64,000 bases of DNA from a bacterium (GTDB lineage: Bacteria > Omnitrophota > Gorgyraeia > Aquiviventales > Aquiviventaceae). Below the pieces are notes generated by a model that ran no database searches, was not told the DNA's origin, and was given only the letters and a program-made list of their open reading frames with translations. Made by a program: the position numbers and the translations under genes. Positions 3,323 through 58,399 of the stretch are shown one piece after another; position 1 is the first letter of the stretch, and every line of letters starts with the position of its first letter. The stretch spans positions 13,145 through 77,144 of the forward strand of contig DASWKB010000038.1 of assembly GCA_036396895.1 (NCBI GenBank), given 5' to 3'.

Positions 3323-3383
3323 CGTGCCTCAGCGGTGTGTGCGATTTCGATGACTGGATGATGCCGAGTCTGGAGCAGGCGCG

Positions 3384-3472
3384 GTGCCAAATTCGGAATG
3401 CGGAATTCGGAATGCGGAATGACGTTCAAGCAGATCGATTCCGAATTCTCAATTCCCAATTCCGAATGTCAC
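3384..3472. repeat. Heptamer-array hairpin element, GGAATKC family, copy 1 (MITE/REP-like)
   Basis: gtgccaaattcggaatgcggaattcggaatgcggaatg ... cgattccgaattctcaattcccaattccgaatgtcac. Tandem GGAATKC heptamers sit on the left arm and their complement on the right. Related copies at 42540-42678 and 55914-55996. Confidence 0.7.
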
Positions 3473-4572: not shown

Positions 4573-4634
4573 ACCATCGCGGTTCCAAGCTGCGGGTTCC
4601 GCGTCAAAGGTTGGCGGCGAGGACCTGGGAATCC

Positions 4635-4839
4635 CGAGAGGCTGGAAGCTGGAGGCTGGAGGCTAGAATGAGTACGTGATCATTCTAAATGCGCCCACGA
4701 TTGCATCTAAACATTGGGCGCATTTACCCTGAGCGAAGTCGAAGGGTACCCCCTCGACTCGCTTTGCTCGCTCGGGGTAAATGGAACCCATTCGAATGTT
4801 AACATGCAATGTGGGTTCCATTTAGCTCCCAGCCTCTCG
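4635..4839. repeat. Heptamer-array hairpin element, GCTGGAR family, copy 1
   Basis: Perfect 11-bp terminal inverted repeats (cgagaggctgg / ccagcctctcg) enclose ggctggaagctggaggctggaggctag. Inside are three internal palindromes (tagaatga..tcattcta; aaatgcgccca..tgggcgcattt; aaatggaaccca..tgggttccattt). Confidence 0.7.
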
Positions 4840-5465: not shown

Positions 5466-5896
5466 GGATCGAACCTCCTTGGATGGAACGGCGGCGTGGC
5501 CTGCCTATTTACTATAGCATGTCGTCCCGTCGCCGAACACCCCTCCCCTTGCGACCCCCTTGAGTTTGGCGACCAGTAACCGGTCCTGTGCCGCCACGGA
5601 ACTTCAGGCGTGTGCCGGCGCGGAAGAGCATGTTTGTGCATCTGTGCAGAACCCCGTTTGTGCCACGACGCCACCCTCAACAACGGAATGTTGGATAGAT
5701 GCACATCGGCACAAGCGTGATGGTCCATGATGGCCCAAACGGCTGGTTTCGTGATGGGACAATCCTGCTCTCCCGATACAGCACAAGACTGACTCCGCAC
5801 TCCCCACTCCACACTCCGCACTTGGCGCGACCGCTCGCGACGTGCCCCTCGCCCCATGCCCCCCGCCCCGACACGGCCCACGGTCCAGAGACGTCG

Positions 5897-6715: not shown

Positions 6716-6796
6716 TCCGCTTCCCATTCGACCCCTGCCCATGCTCATGTTATGTCCCCCTCCCCGCCCTTCCCCCACCGCACTGGGTGTCTGGGT

Positions 6797-6840
6797 GTCC
6801 CCAAGGTGACAGTCACCCAGGTGACTGTCACCTTGGGGAC
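6797..6840. promoter_or_regulatory. Perfect 20-bp inverted repeat with a 4-nt spacer, containing two GGTGAC-N-GTCACC palindromic boxes, in the divergent intergenic region between the asparaginase gene and the inositol-3-phosphate synthase gene
   Basis: gtccccaaggtgacagtcac ccag gtgactgtcaccttggggac. No T-tract follows, so this is more likely an operator than a terminator. Confidence 0.5.
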
Positions 6841-6957
6841 AGGCATGGGCGTGTGCGTGCTATCGACATGGATGGCTAACCACCGGCACTAACTGCTTGC
6901 ATCCATGGAATTTTCGATTATACTACTAGGGCTGTTTTCCACCAGGAGGGATGCTGC

Positions 6958-16160: not shown

Positions 16161-16187
16161 CGCATCCTCCTTCTCAGTATTCGCGAG

Positions 16188-16274
16188 AAGCTGGAGGTTG
16201 GAGGCTAGAAGCTCGAACATTCCAGCTTCCAGCATCCAGCTTCCAGCATCCAGCATCCAGCTTCCAGCTTCCGA
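16188..16274. repeat. Heptamer-array hairpin element, GCTGGAR family, copy 2 (includes a 7x CCAGCWT tandem array)
   Basis: gctggaggttggaggctagaagctcgaacattccagcttccagcatccagcttccagcatccagcatccagcttccagcttcc, between hypE and acs. Confidence 0.65.
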
Positions 16275-40686: not shown

Positions 40687-42603
40687 CTACACCTCGTCAT
40701 CCGGCTCGTTCTCGCGGTGGGCCCGATCCGACTCCGAGGGCCGCCCGCTGATCCACGTCCACTTCATCGGGTACTCGTCCGGGTCGAACATCACGAAGTA
40801 GAAGTGCCACACGGCGATCGCCAGGCACGCGAGGACCGCCTCGTAGTAGTGAATCGCGTTCACCACGTCGAAGCACCACTTCGGGAACACGCGCAGCGTC
40901 CAGTCCTGCCAGGTCATCAGCGTGCCCGTCAGCACCATCACGATGGAGCCCCACACGAGCGCCCAGTACTCCATCTTCTCGACATAGCTGTAGCGGGCGA
41001 AGACCGGCCGCGCCGCGCGCCGTCCCAGGTAGAACGCCAGCATGCGGAACGGATCGATGAGATCGCGGCGCCTCGGCCACAGCGCCGCCAGCTCCTTCCT
41101 GCCGCGCGTCGTGGCGGCCATGAACCACAGGTGGTACACCGACAGCAGCACGAACAGCGCCGCCGCGACCCGGTGCCCCATGCTCCGCCAATCGAACCGG
41201 CCGACGAAGGGGCTCGACCACCAGGCCTGCGGGAACGACAGCGCGAAGCCCGTGTAGGCCAGCGTCAGGAACGCGAGAATCAACAGGACGTGCTGGAGGC
41301 GCTCGCCGCGCTGCATCCGCATGCCGGTGGCCTGAGCCCGGTGGCGGCGGTAATGCTCGGCGAGCTTCCGCCTGAAGTCCAGGAAGTTGTGCGCGAGCAT
41401 CCCGCCGATCACCATCACGATCAGCGCCAGGTAGAACCTGCGGACCCACCCGACGACGCGGTGCTCCAGGCCCGGCCGGGTGCCTGAGTGGATCTGCCCT
41501 TTGGCGACCTGGGCGCTGACGCCGGGGTGGCACTTCCCGCAGGTCTGCGGCAGGTTCGAGGGATGCACCGAGGAGCGGGGGTCGTTCGAGGGGAGGATAT
41601 CGTGGGCCCCGTGGCAGGAGGCGCAGTTCGCCGCCGTCGGCATGCCCATCTGCAGCGCAAGCCCGTGGAAGCTCGACATGTAGGTGTCGACGGTGTGCGA
41701 CGGGAGCCCGTACTTGGTGATGATGCGCTCGGCTGCGTGGCACTGCCCGCACGTCTCGGGAATGTGCGAGGGGAAGACCGACGATGCGGCCAGCTTCACG
41801 GACGCGATGGTGTGCTCGCCGTGGCAGTCGGTGCAGACCGGCGCCTCGCGCTTCCCCGCCTGGACGGCGCCGCCGTGGACGCTGCGCAGGTACGTCTGCT
41901 GGATGTTCTCATGGCATTTCCCGCAGGTGGCCGGGATGCGCTGCCAGTAGAGCTTCGACCCCGGATTGGTCGCGCGGTGCAGATCGTGCGAGCCGTGGCA
42001 GTCCGTGCACACGGCCGCCGCCGCCACGCCCCGCTCGATGAGCGCCCGGCCGTGCACGCTCTCATCGTAGGAGGCCACCGGCTCGGGCTGCGCCAGCCGG
42101 AACCGGGCCATCTCGGCGGTCTTCCCGTGGCATTGCGCGCAGGTCTCGGGAATGTTGGCCCGGTGCACGGGCGAGGCGGGGTTGCGCGAGCTCAGCAGCT
42201 CATGGGCGTTGCCGTGGCAGCTGCGGCAGGTCGCCGCTTCGGTGACGCCGGCTTTCAGCGCCAGGCCGTGATCGCTGTTCAGGTAGACTTCGGTCTCGAT
42301 CCGGTGGCAGGAGGCGCAGCTCACGGGCGCAAGCGGCACGCCGTGCGGGATCTCCGTCACGTCCCGGTGGCAGCTCGTGCAGCGGTTGCGGCCGTGGATC
42401 GAGGCTCCGAACAGCTCGGGGTCGATGAACGGGTCCGCGGACGGGTCGCCGTGGCACGCCAGGCACGTGTCATTGTCCGGAGCCTCCTGCGCGCGCGCCG
42501 GCGCTGCGAATGCCAACACCAATCCCAGCGCCAACCATCGTGCCAAATTCGGAATTCGGAATGCGGAATGGCTCGGCGTACCGTTCGATGTGGAATGTGT
42601 CAT
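40687..42603 (-). CDS. Undecaheme c-type cytochrome fused to a C-terminal diheme cytochrome b (HydC/FdnI-like) membrane domain; same architecture as Geobacter CbcL
   Basis: 11 CxxCH motifs follow a signal peptide. The C-terminal 4-5 TM helices carry conserved His (MLAHNFLDF, SVYHLWF, NAIHYYEAVL, AVWHFYF). The start codon and N-region lie inside the GGAATKC element. Confidence 0.7.
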   Translation of the reverse strand: MTHSTSNGTPSHSAFRIPNLARWLALGLVLAFAAPARAQEAPDNDTCLACHGDPSADPFIDPELFGASIHGRNRCTSCHRDVTEIPHGVPLAPVSCASCHRIETEVYLNSDHGLALKAGVTEAATCRSCHGNAHELLSSRNPASPVHRANIPETCAQCHGKTAEMARFRLAQPEPVASYDESVHGRALIERGVAAAAVCTDCHGSHDLHRATNPGSKLYWQRIPATCGKCHENIQQTYLRSVHGGAVQAGKREAPVCTDCHGEHTIASVKLAASSVFPSHIPETCGQCHAAERIITKYGLPSHTVDTYMSSFHGLALQMGMPTAANCASCHGAHDILPSNDPRSSVHPSNLPQTCGKCHPGVSAQVAKGQIHSGTRPGLEHRVVGWVRRFYLALIVMVIGGMLAHNFLDFRRKLAEHYRRHRAQATGMRMQRGERLQHVLLILAFLTLAYTGFALSFPQAWWSSPFVGRFDWRSMGHRVAAALFVLLSVYHLWFMAATTRGRKELAALWPRRRDLIDPFRMLAFYLGRRAARPVFARYSYVEKMEYWALVWGSIVMVLTGTLMTWQDWTLRVFPKWCFDVVNAIHYYEAVLACLAIAVWHFYFVMFDPDEYPMKWTWISGRPSESDRAHRENEPDDEV

Positions 42604-42678
42604 GGACCGGCCGAGCGGGCATGACACGTTACACATCCAACATGACACAATCGGGATTCCGCATTCCGCATTTGGCAC
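42540..42678. repeat. Heptamer-array hairpin element, GGAATKC family, copy 2 (longest; near-perfect terminal inverted repeats)
   Basis: gtgccaaattcggaattcggaatgcggaatg …(unique core with tgtcatg/catgaca and ggctcggc/gccgagc sub-palindromes)… gggattccgcattccgcatttggcac. Confidence 0.75.
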
Positions 42679-53283: not shown

Positions 53284-54519
53284 TCAACATCGCTCCAGCC
53301 GCACCGTTGCCTCCGCGTGCGCGGACTCGAACGCCCCGGCATCGGGGGCCCGGAGCAATCGCGGAAGCGCGAACCACAGCCAAGCCAGCGCGCCCAGCAG
53401 CCAGGCGCCTGCCGCCGTGCCCAGCGCATGGAAATAGCCGGCGGGCACGAGATCCGCGCACAGCCGCGCGATCAGCGCCGCGCCCAGCGCGACCCCGAGC
53501 AGGCGAATGATCCACAGCGGGTTGCGAAGGCGCAACCCTTCCCCGCTGTGGCTCATCACCACCATCGTGGCGACCGCAAACGCCATCAGGCTGAACCCGC
53601 CCAAAAACACCACGTGCAGCATCGCAACCCGGTACGCCGGCTGCCACGCCGCCGCCCACAAGCCTCCCATGATGGCCCACAGCGACACCCACACCAGCCG
53701 CGCATAGCCCTCGGGAACCGCCGGAGGCCTCCAGCACTGCGTGGTCCAGGCCAGCTCCGCCGTGACCACCGCCGCCCGCAGCGCATAGGCCGGACGGATC
53801 ATGCCTGCGCCTTCCAGCACGCCGCTCGCCGCCAGCGACGCGCCGGCGGCCGCGTGCGCGGCCATCCGCACGCCGGGCCGGGTCCACCATCGGGGATCAC
53901 CCGGATCGACGCGGACCGGCAGCCCGCCCCGTCCGAGCAGCCTGGGCGCCATGAAGCCGGCGACGCCGACGACGATGGACAGCAGGAATCCCTGCTGAGC
54001 CAGCACGCGCCCCGTGCCGCTCACCCACACCGGGGCGCCCCCCAGCTCCCGGGCCATCATCATCCCGGCTCCCGCGATGCCCAACAGCAGGCCGATCGGG
54101 ATCCAAACGAACTCCGCCGGCGCATCGCCGCCGCGCCGCGCCGCCACCCGGCGCGCGGCGAACGCGCCCAACTGAACGAGCAGCGCGATGAAACACGCCA
54201 GCGACGCGGCCCACCAGCCGAATGACAGGCACAGCACGTATCCCGCCAGCGCCGCCAGGGCGCCCGCCAATTCCGCGGTGGAGGCGGGCGGCGTTGACGA
54301 GAACCGCGGAAGCGCGGTCATGAGGAAGCCGGCGATGAAGCCGTACATGTAGCCGCCGACTTGAAGGAACGCGTGAAAGGAACCGGATGAGGCCTCGGTC
54401 CATCGGGCCGCGTACGCGAGCCAGTGGCCGACGCCGAGGCAGCCCAGCAGCGTGCCGATGGGAAACAGGACCCGAAAGGGCTCCCGCTTCGCCTGGGTCC
54501 AGGTGATCATCCCGCGCAC
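53284..54519 (-). CDS. NnrS-like polytopic membrane protein (heme-copper membrane protein family linked to NO response)
   Basis: 411 aa, about 12 TM helices with multiple His in the helices. Family assignment from overall architecture only. Confidence 0.45.
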   Translation of the reverse strand: MRGMITWTQAKREPFRVLFPIGTLLGCLGVGHWLAYAARWTEASSGSFHAFLQVGGYMYGFIAGFLMTALPRFSSTPPASTAELAGALAALAGYVLCLSFGWWAASLACFIALLVQLGAFAARRVAARRGGDAPAEFVWIPIGLLLGIAGAGMMMARELGGAPVWVSGTGRVLAQQGFLLSIVVGVAGFMAPRLLGRGGLPVRVDPGDPRWWTRPGVRMAAHAAAGASLAASGVLEGAGMIRPAYALRAAVVTAELAWTTQCWRPPAVPEGYARLVWVSLWAIMGGLWAAAWQPAYRVAMLHVVFLGGFSLMAFAVATMVVMSHSGEGLRLRNPLWIIRLLGVALGAALIARLCADLVPAGYFHALGTAAGAWLLGALAWLWFALPRLLRAPDAGAFESAHAEATVRLERC

Positions 54520-55655
54520 GAGGCCGGCTGTCCGGCCTGGACGCGCGGCACATAGGCGCAGCCCGGCTCTTCCGCGAGATAATCGCCGGTCGTCGCGTAG
54601 GCGCGCGCGCGGGAGCCGCCGCAGGCGTCCCGGTACTCGCAGATCCCGCAGCGGCCGCCCAGGCGGTCGGGATCGCGAAGCGCCCGGAACACCGGCGAGT
54701 CGCGGTACACGTCCGCCAGCCGGTGGCGGCGCACGTTGCCGGCCGCCAGCGGCAGAAACCCGCTCGGATAGATCTCCCCGTGGTACGAGATGAACAGGTG
54801 GCCTTTGCCCGCGTTGATCGGCTGCGGGGCCTGGCCGATCGTCCCCATCGGCCCGATCGCGCGCCGCAGCGCCTCAGGCAACGCCGCATCCGAGGCCGAG
54901 GGACGCCGGGCGGCCGCCGGCTCGCGCTGCATGACGTAACGGCGGAAGTGGGGGGCTTCGGTGATCTTGACGATGAACGGCGCGCGGCGTGTCAGCGCGT
55001 AGAGCTTCGCGAAGACCCGTTCGAATTCCTCGGGCGCGAGCCCCTCCACCTGGTTGCCCCGGCCCACCGGCACGAGGAAGAACACCTCCCAGAATACGAT
55101 CCCGAGGCGCTCGATCAGCTCGATCATCGCGTCGGCGTCCTCGAGGTTGCGCCGGCTGAAGACGGTGTTGATCTGGACGGCGAGCTTGGCCTCGTGCGCC
55201 CACTGCACGGCGTCCATGGTCTTGCGGAACGCGCCCGGCACGCCCCGGAACGCGTCGTGCGCGCCGGGGGTGCTCGCATCCAGGCTCAGCGCCATCTGAT
55301 CGAGCCCCGTGTCCTTCAGCGACGCGACGACGGACCGGGTCAGCTTCGCGGTCGCGGCCGGAATCGTGCCGACGCGCCGTCCGCGCGCTTTGGCGCGCCG
55401 GATCAGCTCGAAGAGATCGGGCCGCTTGAGCGGATCGCCGCCGCTGAGGACCAGGATCGGGGTGCCGAGGGCCGCGATCTCATCGATCAGCGCCAGCCCC
55501 TCTTCGGGCGTCAGCTCTCCGGGCAGCGGGTTCGGCTGGGCGGCGGCGCGGCAGTGCGCGCAGGCGAGGTCGCAGGCTTGCGTGGTTTCCCAAATGACGA
55601 TGAAGGGCGTCCGGGCGAGGTCGAGCGCGCGCGCGTGGGCGTGGGGCGGCGTGGT
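54507..55655 (-). CDS. Radical SAM / SPASM-domain enzyme (NirJ/AhbD/MftC-like subfamily)
   Basis: IWETTQACDLACAHC (CX3CX2C) and a C-terminal auxiliary-cluster Cys region CGICEYRDACGG. The start is probably the Met of MTTPPHAHARA…. Confidence 0.7.
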   Translation of the reverse strand, partial: TTPPHAHARALDLARTPFIVIWETTQACDLACAHCRAAAQPNPLPGELTPEEGLALIDEIAALGTPILVLSGGDPLKRPDLFELIRRAKARGRRVGTIPAATAKLTRSVVASLKDTGLDQMALSLDASTPGAHDAFRGVPGAFRKTMDAVQWAHEAKLAVQINTVFSRRNLEDADAMIELIERLGIVFWEVFFLVPVGRGNQVEGLAPEEFERVFAKLYALTRRAPFIVKITEAPHFRRYVMQREPAAARRPSASDAALPEALRRAIGPMGTIGQAPQPINAGKGHLFISYHGEIYPSGFLPLAAGNVRRHRLADVYRDSPVFRALRDPDRLGGRCGICEYRDACGGSRARAYATTGDYLAEEPGCAYVPRVQAGQPASCAG

Positions 55656-55903
55656 CATGCGCCTGGCGTCCCGGGCGGCGCGGGAACCACGCCGGAGACC
55701 GGCAGCGCGTCGAACGGCCACGCCCCGCCGTCGGTCGTGAAGACGCAGTCCACGCGGAAGCAGGCGGGATCCTTATCGAGGCAGTTGACCACTCTCCACT
55801 TCCCTGGCGCGTGCTGCAGCAGGATCGCCCAGACGCTGCGCTGCGTCAGCGCGCACGTGCACGGCAGGTATTTCACCTCGCCCCGGTCCGCCTCACTCAT
55901 CAC
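55655..55903 (-). CDS. Small Cys-containing hypothetical protein (82 aa) translationally coupled to the radical SAM/SPASM gene
   Basis: VKYLPCTCALTQRSVWAILLQHAPGKWRVVNCLDKDPACFRVDCVF; its stop overlaps the rSAM start; lies immediately downstream of GGAATKC element copy 3. Confidence 0.35.
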   Translation of the reverse strand: MMSEADRGEVKYLPCTCALTQRSVWAILLQHAPGKWRVVNCLDKDPACFRVDCVFTTDGGAWPFDALPVSGVVPAPPGTPGA

Positions 55904-55913
55904 TGTGCCTCCC

Positions 55914-55996
55914 GTGCCAAATGTGGAATTCGGAATTGGGAATTCGGAATGTGCTCCCGGTTTTCAATTCCGCATTCCGCATTCCGCATTTGGCAC
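55914..55996. repeat. Heptamer-array hairpin element, GGAATKC family, copy 3
   Basis: gtgccaaatgtggaattcggaattgggaattcggaatg tgctcccggtttt caattccgcattccgcattccgcatttggcac. Confidence 0.7.
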
Positions 55997-56045
55997 ACCG
56001 CATGCCCATGCACCTTGAATCTTCCTTGACGTGAGCCTGATGCAG

Positions 56046-57788
56046 TTAGCCGGCGCACTCGCCCTTCCCCATCCCTCCCAAGGAGAAGTCCTCCGTGTGC
56101 CCCCAGTCGCGGAACGCCTCAGGGTCTTCCGGGTTGGGTTCGAACACGGCGAACGGGGCCAGCGCGCGCTCGATCGGCGCCGTGCCGGCGCGTTCCACGC
56201 AGGCCCGGAACGATTCCCCGTCGGTCCGCTCGCGCCGGTACCAGGCCAGCAGCGCCTCGACGGCCTGCGGGACCCGCCGCGCCGGCAGCCGCGCCACCGT
56301 CTGCCCGAATGACGCTTCGCCGTCCCCGCATCCGCCGCCGACCAGCACCTGATAGAACGGCACCGGGCGGCCCGCCACGTTCCGGCTCGACCCGAACATG
56401 CCGATGTCGGCGATATGATGCTGGCCGCAGGAATTCGGGCAGCCGGAGAGCTTGATCCGGAGCGCTTGGAGGTCGTCGGTCTTGTACTCCGGAGCGTCGA
56501 GCGTGTCCGCCAGCGCCGTCGCCAGGCCGCGCGAGGCGGTAATGCCGATCTGGCAGGTGTCCGCGCCCGGGCAGGACGTGATGTCCTGAATCCGCTCCGC
56601 GTCGGCGCGCCCGAGCCCGAGCGGGACGAGCACCGCGTACAGCGACGGCAGATCCTCTTCCCTAACCCAGGGCAGGCACACGTCCTGCCACGGCGTCGTG
56701 ACGACCCGCCCGCCGGAGAACCGGCGCGCCGCGTCCGCGAGACCCCGCAGCTGGGGCACCGACAGATCACCCAGGAGCAGCCGCACGGTGACCATCGCGA
56801 CGCCCGGCTGGCGCTGGGGCTGCGCGTTCGTCTTGACCCACCGGACATACCCCGCGGCGCCCTCCGCCCGGATGGCGCGGCCGCCGCCGCGCCCGTTCGT
56901 TGGGATCGCCGGCTCCGGCAGCAACGGGAACCGCTCCGGGCGCGCGTGCAGCTCGTCGCGCCGAGCGAACACGCGGCGGCGGAACTCCTCGATGCCGATC
57001 GAGCTCAGCAGGAACTTCATCCTGGCGCGCTGGCGGTTCTTTCGCTCACCGTCGCGGTTGAACACCGCAAGGACGGCCTCCATCGTCGGCAGGAGCTCCG
57101 CCAGCGGCGTCCACGGCTCCAGGAGATCCGCCGGGCGCGGGAGCGCCCCGAGCCCCCCGCCGACGTACAGCCGGAATCCGGGCCGGCCCTGATCCAGCGC
57201 CGCGATCACCCCGATGTCATGGATCGCCGCCATCGCCCGGTCGTGCCGGCAGCCGGAGAAGCTCATCTTGAACTTGCGGGGAAGCTCCTGCGTGTCCGGG
57301 TGCCTGAGGAAATACGTGGTCGCGGCCAGCACGTACGGCGCCACGTCGAAGACCTCATCGGGGCAGAGCCCGGTGAACGGGCACGCGGTGATGTTCCTGA
57401 CGCTGTTGCCGCACGCCTCCCGCGTGGTGAGGCCGACATCCGCCAGCTCCGCCAGCAGGTCCGGCACCCGCGGCAGGGGCACCTCGTAGAGCTGGAAGTC
57501 CTGCCGGGTCGTCACGTGCGCCCTGCCGGTCGCGTAGGCCTCCGCGAGCGCCGCGACCCGCTCGCACTGCCCGGCGTTGAGCCAGCCGCCTGGCACTTTG
57601 ATGCGGACCATCTGGCGGTCGCGCAGCGCGCGGATGCCGTAGATCCCGAGCTGCAGCCGGCACTTCTTGAAGTCATCCGCGGAGAGCGACCCGTCGAGGT
57701 ACTGGCGGATGCGGCCCCGGAACTCGTCCAGTTCCGCCGGGTTCCCCGGCAGCGTCACGATGGGTGTCGTCGGCTGTGTCTGCTGCAT
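56046..57788 (-). CDS. Ferredoxin-dependent sulfite/nitrite reductase (siroheme + 4Fe-4S; NirA/Sir family)
   Basis: Two NiR/SiR repeats and the cluster motif SGCPNSCGQHH…; 580 aa. Confidence 0.85.
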   Translation of the reverse strand: MQQTQPTTPIVTLPGNPAELDEFRGRIRQYLDGSLSADDFKKCRLQLGIYGIRALRDRQMVRIKVPGGWLNAGQCERVAALAEAYATGRAHVTTRQDFQLYEVPLPRVPDLLAELADVGLTTREACGNSVRNITACPFTGLCPDEVFDVAPYVLAATTYFLRHPDTQELPRKFKMSFSGCRHDRAMAAIHDIGVIAALDQGRPGFRLYVGGGLGALPRPADLLEPWTPLAELLPTMEAVLAVFNRDGERKNRQRARMKFLLSSIGIEEFRRRVFARRDELHARPERFPLLPEPAIPTNGRGGGRAIRAEGAAGYVRWVKTNAQPQRQPGVAMVTVRLLLGDLSVPQLRGLADAARRFSGGRVVTTPWQDVCLPWVREEDLPSLYAVLVPLGLGRADAERIQDITSCPGADTCQIGITASRGLATALADTLDAPEYKTDDLQALRIKLSGCPNSCGQHHIADIGMFGSSRNVAGRPVPFYQVLVGGGCGDGEASFGQTVARLPARRVPQAVEALLAWYRRERTDGESFRACVERAGTAPIERALAPFAVFEPNPEDPEAFRDWGHTEDFSLGGMGKGECAG

Positions 57789-58103: not shown

Positions 58104-58198
58104 ATGCTACAGCATCTGCACAGATCCGTTCCATGACATCCGTCATATTCGTCAACAAAGCCGGCCTGGGGCTGGAACGGGGCGGGGGGCGGGGACGT

Positions 58199-58372
58199 GG
58201 GGATGACCATGAGAGCATGAGAAGGTAGAAGATGGAGGGTGGAGGGTGGAAGAGAGAAGATGGAAGGTGGAGGGTAGAAGGTAGAAGGTAGAAGATAGAA
58301 GGTAGAGTTATATTGTCATTTGTACTTTCTATCTTCTACCTTCTATCTTCTACCTTCTCACGGTCATCCCCA
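58199..58372. repeat. Octamer-array hairpin element, GGTAGAAG/GGTGGAGG family
   Basis: Terminal inverted repeats ggggatgaccatgaga / tctcacggtcatcccc enclose (ggtagaag/ggtggagg)n, an AT-rich loop (ttatattgtcatttgtac), then (cttctacc/cttctatc)n. Confidence 0.7.
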
Positions 58373-58399
58373 CATCCGCGCCCCCCGGCCCAATCGTGA

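What the first reader, a model, noticed from the sequence alone, without database searches (positions are those of the whole stretch)
42540..42678. A family of hairpin elements built from tandem GGAATKC heptamers (three copies)
Three intergenic copies share the terminal motif GTGCCAAAT followed by 3-5 tandem GGAATKC heptamers. The opposite arm carries the exact complement (CATTCCG)n ATTTGGCAC. Each copy has a different unique core. The copies are at 3384-3472, 42540-42678 and 55914-55996. All sit between co-directional minus-strand genes. Terminal inverted repeats, a variable core, no ORF and multiple dispersed copies are the hallmarks of MITE or REP-like mobile or structural elements. I do not recognise the heptamer-array construction from described bacterial repeat families.
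Basis: seen in the sequence. Interest (0 to 1): 0.8.

Follow-up and report, generated by a model that had tools for sequence, protein, structure and literature searches.

The report
Hairpin repeats with heptamer-array arms
The three hairpins are real and belong to a little-studied but widespread class of bacterial repeats whose two arms are short runs of a 7-base unit; a close cousin was described in Xanthomonas in 2015, so they are an interesting variant, not a new kind of element.

Summary
Three intergenic hairpins (3384-3472, 42540-42678, 55914-55996) have arms of 3-5 GGAATKC units. A GTGCCAAAT/ATTTGGCAC clamp closes 5 of the 6 ends, and the cores are unrelated.

The construction is not unprecedented. 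Xanthomonas carries about 185 GGGAATC heptamer arrays per genome, 70-75 of them as convergent inverted pairs (Rehm 2015, PMC4692102). The GGAAT core is the same.

GGAATKC arrays are common in metagenome and viral contigs, 117 viral hits against 3 and 15 for composition-matched controls. Three regularities stand out:
- The purine-rich arm is always 5' (49 pairs to 1).
- Arms peak at 4-5 units.
- Unit number varies by exactly 7 nt between related genomes.

In relatives of this uncultured high-GC lineage (neighbours labelled 'Ca. Omnitrophica'), such hairpins sit in frame in two loops of an RluD-like protein. Other homologues have those sites empty.

My best reading is a REP/REPIN/RPE-like dispersed palindromic element with microsatellite arms and REP-like side effects on mRNA. 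Mobility and function are inferred, not shown. I found no Rfam match, no target-site duplication, no transposase among the ~19 window genes scanned against Pfam, and no sign of selection on the mRNA strand.

The parts
42540..42678 (.). Copy 2 of the GGAATKC hairpin. Clamp GTGCCAAAT at 42540-42548, 5' arm to about 42571, core 42572-42647, 3' arm 42648-42672, clamp ATTTGGCAC at 42670-42678.
   Evidence: I7: 31-nt arms, 84% complementary, 77 nt apart. Fold of -64 (minus-strand RNA) and -70 (plus-strand RNA) kcal/mol, z about -5.4.
42588..42637 (.). Second, nested hairpin inside the core of copy 2 (GATGTGGAATGTGTCATG / CATGACACGTTACACATC). It contains the ATG (42603, minus strand) that the JGI/ENA gene calls use as the start of the downstream cytochrome gene.
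   Evidence: unique in the window and in all fetched loci. Gene-start conflict.
3384..3472 (.). Copy 1. Clamp GTGCCAAAT, 4.6 units (14-nt period AATTCGGAATGCGG), 16-nt loop, 4.3 diverged units, degenerate 3' clamp (AATGTCAC).
   Evidence: I8: 30-nt arms, 83%. Fold -36 kcal/mol, z -3.3.
55914..55996 (.). Copy 3. Both clamps intact, arms of 3.7 and 3.4 units, loop of about 13-21 nt. On the minus strand it is followed directly by GGGAGG and the ATG (55899) of an 81-aa ORF.
   Evidence: I6: 31-nt arms, 87%; -43 and -47 kcal/mol. The 81-aa product is annotated as HEX9780544.1.
5792..5828 (+). Degenerate solo 3' arm of the same family, (ACTCCGC)n ACTTGGCGC. It is the complement of GGAGTGC units plus a diverged clamp.
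   Evidence: ACTCCGCACTTGGCGC, 3 mismatches to ATTCCGCATTTGGCAC; 10 matches in the window against 0.29 expected.
16187..16271 (.). Hairpin of the same architecture with another heptamer (GAAGCTG/GGAGGYT arm against TTCCAGC x7.6). It ends 27 nt upstream of the acetyl-CoA synthetase start (16160, minus strand).
   Evidence: I9, I10; -48 kcal/mol, z -4.8.
58179..58391 (.). Composite hairpin: an outer 36-nt G+C-rich stem encloses (AGAAGGT)12 and (TACCTTC)5 arrays. It lies between a TamB-like gene stop (58400) and an HTH gene start (58103).
   Evidence: I1-I5, I11; -116 kcal/mol, z -16.
4630..4690 (+). Solo (GCTGGAR)4 array followed by a small hairpin (TAGAATGA..TCATTCTA), upstream of the AI-2E transporter gene.

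Best explanation
The three copies belong to a lineage-wide population of small palindromic, non-coding insertion elements in the REP/REPIN/RPE sense. Each arm is a short microsatellite of about 4-5 tandem heptamers, here GGAATKC. The purine-rich arm is always 5' and the pyrimidine-rich arm 3'. In this genome a 6-9 bp GTGCCA(AAT) clamp closes the stem.

Shown here:
- the sequence family and its strong hairpin potential;
- the fixed polarity and the preferred arm length;
- gain or loss of whole 7-nt units between related genomes (slippage);
- presence or absence of such hairpins at the same sites in homologous genes of related MAGs;
- tolerance of the hairpins between cistrons and, in frame, inside protein loops.

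Inferred:
- The elements are dispersed by a copy mechanism acting on DNA. The enzyme is unknown. A trans-acting Y1/RAYT-type or other transposase is possible.
- The arms are kept homogeneous and complementary by slippage and intrastrand template switching.
- In the window they act mainly as bystanders with REP-like side effects. A -36 to -116 kcal/mol hairpin that starts 8-50 nt after a stop codon and ends 0-60 nt before the next start should block 3' exonucleases. It should also attenuate read-through and modulate initiation of the downstream cistron. Copy 2 overlaps the candidate start codons, and copy 3 abuts the Shine-Dalgarno sequence.
For: - Family and statistics.
- Stable folds.
- The shared clamp at 5 of 6 ends with unrelated cores argues for common descent of the copies, not independent local birth.
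- The same unit recurs at unrelated sites and in many genomes. There are more than 120 metagenome loci and 117 viral loci (some of them related contigs), against 3 and 15 for composition-matched control heptamers.
- Polarity: 49 convergent pairs to 1 divergent. Among all complementary period-7 pairs, the purine-rich arm is 5' in 66 of 68 GGAAT-type pairs and 19 of 24 pairs with other heptamers. Direct gapped-pattern scans gave 4 to 0.
- Arm length peaks at 4-5 units.
- Orthologous elements differ by exactly one unit, 161 against 168 nt.
- Occupied and empty sites, and different unit types at the same two RluD loops, with the reading frame kept.
- Whole-element multi-copy family with heptamer termini and conserved subterminal hairpins in L325.
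- Position just after stop codons matches the Xanthomonas GGGAATC repeats, which lie on average 28 nt after the upstream ORF (PMC4692102).
Against: - There are no target-site duplications.
- The ~19 window genes scanned against Pfam are housekeeping; the remaining genes were not scanned. No transposase or RAYT turned up.
- The cores of the three copies are unrelated, unlike copies of a typical MITE.
- Genome-wide copy number is unknown, because the MAG is absent from the genome collection and no close relative is available. The best protein hit is 76% identical and has a different gene order.
- Relatives at that distance have few heptamer arrays around the cytochrome locus.
- No RNA data are available, so every effect on mRNA is inference.
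Confidence: 0.5

Rival explanations
1. Host-selected RNA signals. The hairpins are U-tract-independent, bidirectional transcription terminators, attenuators or mRNA 3'-end stabilisers. The heptamer periodicity is only a by-product of how the stems grow.
For: - They start 8-50 nt after stop codons. In a crude survey of the metagenome loci they are more frequent between convergent than divergent genes, 9 to 4 overall and 5 to 1 for pairs.
- The window region 40-60 kb has no excess of canonical hairpin-plus-T-run terminators, 3 found against 7.6 expected.
- The purine-5'/pyrimidine-3' polarity is the same as A-tract/stem/U-tract in bidirectional terminators. It puts a weak rY:dR hybrid under the 3' arm (my inference).
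- Xanthomonas repeats sit 28 nt after ORF ends.
Against: - There is no T-run after any copy.
- The antisense RNA folds as well as or better than the sense RNA in 10 of 15 elements, so there is no G-U signature of selection on the mRNA strand.
- The same hairpins persist in frame inside an RluD-like ORF.
- Copies 2 and 3 sit inside probable operons, right at the next gene's start.
- Neighbouring relatives manage without them.
Confidence: 0.2
2. Purely local origin. Each hairpin arose in place from a heptamer microsatellite by slippage plus template-switch (fold-back) synthesis. There is no mobility and no function.
For: - Exact 7-nt unit polymorphism.
- Period 7 dominates tandem repeats in the host contigs, 636 of about 1760 arrays.
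- About two thirds of arrays are solo.
- Cores are unique.
- There are no target-site duplications.
Against: - Local birth should give a different unit at each site. Instead the same GGAATKC unit and the same GTGCCAAAT clamp recur at unrelated sites.
- GGAATKC is 8-40 times commoner than control heptamers.
- Both RluD sites in one genome carry the same unit type: L379 GGAATGC, L380 GGGGTTC.
- Arm length is peaked, not decaying.
- The polarity is fixed.
Confidence: 0.15
3. Arrays of binding sites or non-B DNA. This would be either G-quadruplex-forming regulatory repeats, as proposed for the Xanthomonas and Nostoc heptamers, or tandem sites for a protein with a 7-nt footprint such as a cold-shock-domain protein.
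For: - Rehm 2015 showed G4 formation by (GGGAATC)n oligonucleotides (PMC4692102).
- MacGregor 2015 discusses CSP binding of heptamer repeats (PMC4679880).
- The GGAAT core is conserved across many NN spacers.
Against: - The window's unit has only GG runs, so it forms at best weak two-tetrad G4s.
- Other units in the same architecture (GCTGGAR, AGAAGGT, GCAAGCT) share no binding motif.
- The common denominator is the inverted-pair architecture, not a sequence.
Confidence: 0.05
4. Repair scars. A templated repeat-adding polymerase extends both 3' ends of a DNA break with the heptamer, and the ends are then joined. This gives convergent arrays around a unique junction.
For: - It would explain the fixed convergent polarity.
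- It would explain the unique cores, the solo arms and the lack of target-site duplications.
- It would explain genome-specific unit types at several sites.
Against: - No such enzyme is known in bacteria, and no candidate gene was seen in the part of the window that was scanned.
- The conserved clamp outside the arrays and the conserved subterminal hairpins of the L325 family fit copying of a defined element better.
Confidence: 0.05

Closest known systems
Xanthomonas GGGAATC heptamer repeats (Rehm et al. 2015, PLoS One, PMC4692102)
   Same: - Tandem heptamers with the same GGAAT core (GGGAATC rotated is GGAATCG).
- Mostly four units.
- High-GC host.
- About 90% intergenic and close to the end of the upstream ORF.
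- Frequently arranged as convergent inverted pairs able to form stem-loops.
- Unit number varies between species.
   Different: - The unit is GGAATKC, so it has no GGG run and no good G-quadruplex potential.
- A GTGCCA(AAT) clamp closes the stem in this genome.
- The host is an uncultured lineage, not a gammaproteobacterium.
- Relatives carry the hairpins in frame inside a gene.
- The 2015 paper treats them as G4 repeats, not as hairpin elements.
REP / REPIN elements mobilised by RAYT transposases (Bertels & Rainey 2011, PMC3116915; Ton-Hoang 2012, PMC3333891)
   Same: - Two inverted arms of about 30 nt separated by a variable spacer form a hairpin of about 80-140 nt.
- Extragenic, between co-directional genes.
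- Solo arms also occur.
- No target-site duplication.
- Expected effects on mRNA stability and termination.
   Different: - Each arm is a tandem heptamer array, not an imperfect palindrome.
- There is no GTAG/GTGG 5' tetranucleotide.
- No RAYT was seen.
- Copy number is unknown.
Rickettsia palindromic elements (RPE; from my own knowledge, Ogata et al. 2000)
   Same: Small palindromic elements that can sit in frame inside protein-coding genes at surface loops and are translated. This is seen here in relatives.
   Different: - There is no sequence relationship.
- RPEs are not built from tandem heptamers.
- In the window itself all copies are intergenic.
Cyanobacterial STRR and Beggiatoaceae TAACTGA heptamer repeats (PMC4679880; Mazel 1990 as cited in PMC4692102)
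   Same: Intergenic tandem heptanucleotide arrays of a few units, dispersed, lineage-enriched, and of unknown function.
   Different: Those are almost always direct arrays. The TAACTGA study found one inverted set among 170. The units and hosts are different.
MITEs
   Same: Short, no ORF, terminal inverted repeats, dispersed. A genuine MITE-like family with heptamer-array termini exists in L325.
   Different: The window copies have no target-site duplication, no shared interior and no recognisable parent IS.

Membership tests
REP/REPIN | Two inverted repeat units with a short spacer forming one long hairpin | tested here: met
   Arms of 30-31 nt, 83-87% complementary, spacers of 17-77 nt. Folds.
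REP/REPIN | Each REP unit is itself an imperfect palindrome with a conserved 5' GT[AG]G | tested here: not met
   The arms are tandem heptamers that begin GTGCCAAAT, with no internal palindrome.
REP/REPIN | A cognate RAYT (Y1 transposase) gene flanked by the repeats | not testable with these tools
   No transposase among the ~19 window genes scanned against Pfam. The rest of the window was not scanned, and the rest of the MAG is not retrievable.
REP/REPIN | Tens to hundreds of copies per genome | tested here: inconclusive
   Three full copies plus one solo arm in 64 kb, and 2-3 further heptamer hairpins. The genome-wide count is unavailable.
MITE | Terminal inverted repeats and no ORF | tested here: met
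MITE | Target-site duplication flanking each copy | tested here: not met
   The flanks are catc/tgat, tccc/accg and gcgcg/gtcgg, with no direct repeats.
MITE | Copies share their internal sequence, derived from a parent IS | tested here: not met
   The cores are unrelated. The copy 2 core is unique in the window and in 381 fetched loci.
Xanthomonas-type GGGAATC heptamer SSR | Tandem heptamers with consensus GGGANTN, at least 2 units, typically 4 | tested here: inconclusive
   The period, unit number and GGAAT core match. The GGG run that defines the published class is absent.
Xanthomonas-type GGGAATC heptamer SSR | Intergenic, close to the end of the upstream ORF, often as convergent inverted pairs | tested here: met
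   The copies start 24, 8 and 50 nt after stops. Convergent-only pairing. Published values.
Xanthomonas-type GGGAATC heptamer SSR | G-quadruplex formation by the G-rich strand | not testable with these tools
   The sequence has GG runs only, so G4 formation is unlikely from sequence.
Intrinsic (Rho-independent) terminator | G+C-rich hairpin followed by a T-run | tested here: not met
   No element was reported by the terminator scan of 40-60 kb. The 3' flanks lack T-runs.
Rfam ncRNA families | Match at gathering threshold | tested here: not met
   0 matches in the whole window. Only sub-threshold generic miRNA-precursor-like hits appeared.

The most novel reading that the evidence does not exclude
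Heptamer-armed hairpins are the footprint of an undescribed DNA transaction. One option is a new class of non-autonomous elements recognised through their heptamer arrays. The other is templated addition of heptamer repeats to both 3' ends of a DNA break followed by end joining. This process operates across several bacterial phyla and their phages. It would explain the long-noted but unexplained excess of 7-nt microsatellites in bacteria, the strict purine-5' polarity, the arm length of about 31 nt, the unique cores, and the in-frame insertions into protein loops.
Probability: 0.1. Interest if true: 0.85.

Novelty: new variant of a known kind. Interest (0 to 1): 0.5.

Why it matters
Heptanucleotide repeats have been known since 2007 to be over-represented in many bacterial genomes, and nobody has explained why. 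This window and the loci it led to show that one unit type (GGAAT plus two bases) is shared far beyond Xanthomonas, including on phage contigs.

The repeats behave less like free microsatellites than like defined hairpin elements:
- They have a fixed polarity.
- They have a preferred arm length.
- They are gained and lost at particular sites.
- They are tolerated inside genes.

That argues against the G-quadruplex explanation as the general one, because this variant lacks G-triplets. It also gives concrete, testable regularities.

There are practical consequences. The hairpins confuse gene callers: three different start calls exist for the cytochrome gene next to copy 2. They also generate spurious peptide repeats such as AECGMRN and IPHSAFR in predicted proteins.

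Tried and rejected
- Rfam, at gathering threshold on the whole window and at permissive E-values on copies 2 and 3, gave only generic sub-threshold hairpin hits.
- There are no tRNA or tmRNA genes in the window.
- Sigma-54 promoter idea (the clamp contains TGGCAC). Only copy 1 has GG-N10-GC spacing, and one such site is expected by chance in 17% of shuffles. Rejected.
- Canonical terminator: no T-runs.
- Source genome. It is not in the genome collection. Exact-protein look-ups for window proteins failed. The cluster look-up only gave accessions: NCBI TPA MAG 'bacterium', HEX9780531/32/44.
- Empty-site test at the window's own loci was not possible. The nearest relatives are about 75% identical at protein level, with a different gene order.
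- BLAST of copy 3 against GenBank phages and PLSDB plasmids found nothing. The low-complexity filter may hide matches.
- The cross-phylum spread of the GTGCCAAAT clamp is not convincing. The Planctomycetales-labelled hit (L004) groups by its RluD protein with the same 'Omnitrophica'-labelled high-GC lineage. In L004 and L033 the right-hand TGGCAC may be native coding sequence. Only 1 of 271 arrays collected without using the clamp carries it.
- Being stop-free in all six frames is not special. Half of all heptamers have this property.
- The sense-strand G-U bias test gave no support for selection on the mRNA.
- Literature searches for heptamer repeats together with REPIN or RAYT found no paper linking the two.
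Full report
OBSERVATION. GGAATKCGGAAT, allowing one mismatch, occurs 13 times in the 64-kb window, all within the three elements, against 0.49 expected. GTGCCAAAT occurs five times, always at an element end. The 3' end of copy 1 is degenerate. The arms are 30-31 nt long and 83-87% complementary, with spacers of 17, 77 and 21 nt. Predicted folds are -36 to -70 kcal/mol with z-scores of -3.3 to -6.2, on either strand.

Almost all genes in the window are on the minus strand. On that strand the elements start 24, 8 and 50 nt after the stop codons of three genes: an AI-2E transporter, a NapC/NirT cytochrome and a sulfite/nitrite-reductase-like gene. They end about 62, 0 and 11-15 nt before the next start. 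The downstream genes are a HemD-HemE fusion, a multihaem/cytochrome b fusion, and an 81-aa ORF ahead of a radical-SAM/SPASM gene.

- The core of copy 2 is itself a hairpin (42588-42637) and is unique.
- A diverged solo arm with a diverged clamp lies at 5792-5828.
- Two further hairpins have the same architecture but other heptamers. One is at 16187-16271 (GCTGGAR/TTCCAGC). The other is a 213-nt composite at 58179-58391, with (AGAAGGT)12 against (TACCTTC)5 inside a G+C-rich outer stem and a fold of -116 kcal/mol.
- There is also a solo GCTGGAR array at 4630-4668.
So the defining feature is the architecture, namely inverted runs of a 7-nt unit. It is not the GGAATKC sequence.

ORGANISM. The window comes from an NCBI third-party-annotated MAG labelled only 'bacterium' (contig of 77,712 nt; proteins HEX9780531, -32 and -44). 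G+C is about 69%. The nearest proteins, at about 75% identity, come from MAGs labelled 'Candidatus Omnitrophica'. Their gene order at the cytochrome locus differs, and those loci carry few heptamer arrays. The MAG is not in the searchable genome collection, so genome-wide copy number could not be measured.

DISTRIBUTION.
- Clamp plus two units. A scan of one genome per species found only five loci, in 'Deltaproteobacteria', 'Planctomycetales' and 'Actinomycetes' MAGs.
- Array alone, (GGAATKC)2.7. Composition-matched control heptamers gave 3 and 15, and GCTGGAR gave 16. Part of the viral count is redundancy from related contigs.
- Host contigs range from 42 to 70% G+C.
- With the two spacer bases left free, other GGAAT-NN units are also common: CA, TA, GA, AT and AC.
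- In the 2.1 Mb of fetched loci, period 7 is by far the commonest tandem-repeat period, 636 of about 1760 arrays.

REGULARITIES.
1. Polarity. Paired arrays are 5'-(GGAATNN)n ... (NNATTCC)n-3' in 49 pairs and the reverse in 1. Among all complementary period-7 pairs, the purine-rich arm is 5' in 66 of 68 GGAAT-type pairs and in 19 of 24 pairs with other heptamers. That includes every strongly skewed one. Direct gapped-pattern scans gave 4 to 0. All five window hairpins obey the rule.
2. Arm length peaks at 4-5 units, about 31 nt, in pairs and in solo arrays.
3. Orthologous elements in related phage contigs differ by exactly one 7-nt unit in one arm.
4. About two thirds of arrays are solo.

GAIN AND LOSS, AND LIFE INSIDE GENES. 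In L004 and L033 a GGAATGC hairpin lies in frame inside an intact RluD-like ORF. The homologues of that protein are again 'Omnitrophica'-labelled, including one from a 68% G+C bin. L004 therefore probably belongs to the same broad lineage as the window.

The protein alignment and the DNA show two loops that vary between homologues:
- Some are empty (L381, P0191, P0196, P0174).
- Some carry GGAATGC hairpins (L004, L033 and L379 at site 1; L379 at site 2).
- Some carry hairpins of other units: GGGGTTC at both sites in L380, GGGCTCA in L004 at site 2, GCAAGCT in L033 at site 2.
The reading frame is always kept, and there is no target-site duplication. Within one genome the same unit type tends to occupy both sites. 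These relatives carry roughly one heptamer hairpin per 3-5 kb. A 4.5-kb contig, L325, has three heptamer-armed elements that share conserved subterminal hairpins. That is a genuine multi-copy element family.

PRIOR KNOWLEDGE. Rehm et al. 2015 (PMC4692102) described about 185 GGGAATC heptamer repeats per Xanthomonas genome. They are mostly four units long, about 90% intergenic, and lie on average 28 nt from the upstream ORF. [quoted passage not shown] Rotated, GGGAATC is GGAATCG, which is the window's GGAAT core with a different spacer.

Heptamer SSR excess in bacteria (Mrazek 2007, as cited there), cyanobacterial STRR heptamers and Beggiatoaceae TAACTGA repeats (PMC4679880) are further relatives. 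Xanthomonas heptamer loci serve as VNTR markers. No paper I could find links heptamer repeats to REPIN/RAYT biology. Rfam has no matching family.

INTERPRETATION. The shared clamp and shared unit at unrelated sites argue against purely local birth of each hairpin. So do the cross-genome recurrence of one unit, the peaked arm length, the fixed polarity and the occupied/empty sites. All of these favour a defined, dispersed element that is copied at the DNA level, with arms that then evolve by slippage and palindrome correction.

Several results argue against a classical MITE or REPIN: no target-site duplication, no shared core, arms that are not palindromic, and no transposase in the part of the window that was scanned.

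A purely RNA-level role is not supported by the data:
- There is no T-run.
- The antisense RNA folds as well as or better than the sense RNA in 10 of 15 elements.
- The hairpins persist inside an ORF.
Even so, any transcript through these sites will carry a very stable hairpin between cistrons. REP-like effects on 3' decay, read-through and downstream initiation are therefore expected.

For copy 2 the downstream start is unresolved:
- ATG 42603, inside the core hairpin, in the JGI/ENA calls.
- TTG 42546, in the terminal stem, which gives a textbook signal peptide.
- A shorter 609-aa product in the NCBI call.
The G-quadruplex explanation offered for Xanthomonas cannot be general, because this variant lacks G-triplets.

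VERDICT. This is a real feature, correctly observed, and reasonably called REP/MITE-like. The construction is not unprecedented, and mobility and function remain inferred. It is a new variant of a known, under-studied kind. Interest is moderate (0.5). It comes mainly from the unexplained polarity rule, the arm-length rule and the in-frame insertions, which deserve a systematic survey.

Noticed in passing
window 16187-16271 and 58179-58391: Two more hairpins built from inverted heptamer arrays, but with other units: GCTGGAR, and AGAAGGT x12 against TACCTTC x5. The second is nested in a 36-nt G+C-rich outer stem, spans 213 nt and folds at -116 kcal/mol.
   Followed up: partly
window 6796-6841: Perfect 22+22-nt palindrome (TGTCCCCAAGGTGACAGTCACC gg GGTGACTGTCACCTTGGGGACA) in the divergent intergenic region between an asparaginase-like gene (minus strand) and a myo-inositol-1-phosphate synthase gene (plus strand). 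It is a candidate operator or bidirectional regulatory site.
   Followed up: no
window 40687-42603: Three different start calls exist for the multihaem/cytochrome b fusion gene next to copy 2: 638 aa from JGI/ENA, 609 aa from NCBI, and a 619-aa version from TTG 42546 that gives a canonical signal peptide (MARWLALGLVLAFAAPARA/QE). The heptamer arm is read as protein (..SHSAFRIPN..) in the longest call.
   Followed up: partly
L004 6344-7456, L033 3013-4107, L379 10001-11110, L380 6766-7845, L381 143-1123: RluD-like pseudouridine synthases of related high-GC MAGs carry heptamer hairpins of different unit types in frame at the same two loops. Other homologues have those loops empty. The inserts are translated as 7-residue repeats such as AECGMRN / IPHSAFR and QGSGLRA / PEPRAPS.
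   Followed up: yes
L325 340-575, 970-1135, 2205-2355: Three copies of a heptamer-armed element (GGAATGA/GGAATTA arms) with conserved subterminal hairpins AAATCCCTTCGGGATTT and AAATCCGTAAGGATTT lie within 2.4 kb of a 4.5-kb viral-collection contig. The first copy carries another palindromic element nested inside it.
   Followed up: partly
L288-L348 (many viral contigs): A group of phage contigs carries (GGAATCA/GGAATCC)4-7 arrays followed by runs of GTGCTTGCACC-like repeats. The layout looks like an iteron or origin-type region, not a hairpin.
   Followed up: no
window 54507-57788: Downstream of copy 3, an 81-aa cysteine-containing ORF (HEX9780544.1, no Pfam match) precedes a radical-SAM/SPASM gene and follows a sulfite/nitrite-reductase-like gene. 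A HemD-HemE fusion lies next to copy 1. Several haem and cytochrome maturation genes are therefore the neighbours of these elements.
   Followed up: no
window 1-64000: Nearly every gene is on the minus strand, and cumulative GC skew falls monotonically across the whole window. This is consistent with one replichore and strong gene-strand bias.
   Followed up: no
window 3374-3389 (minus strand): The clamp of copy 1 plus its flank reads TGGCACCGCGCCTGCT, a one-mismatch match to the sigma-54 -24/-12 consensus, about 50 nt upstream of the hemDE start. It is the only such site in the window and is not significant.
   Followed up: yes
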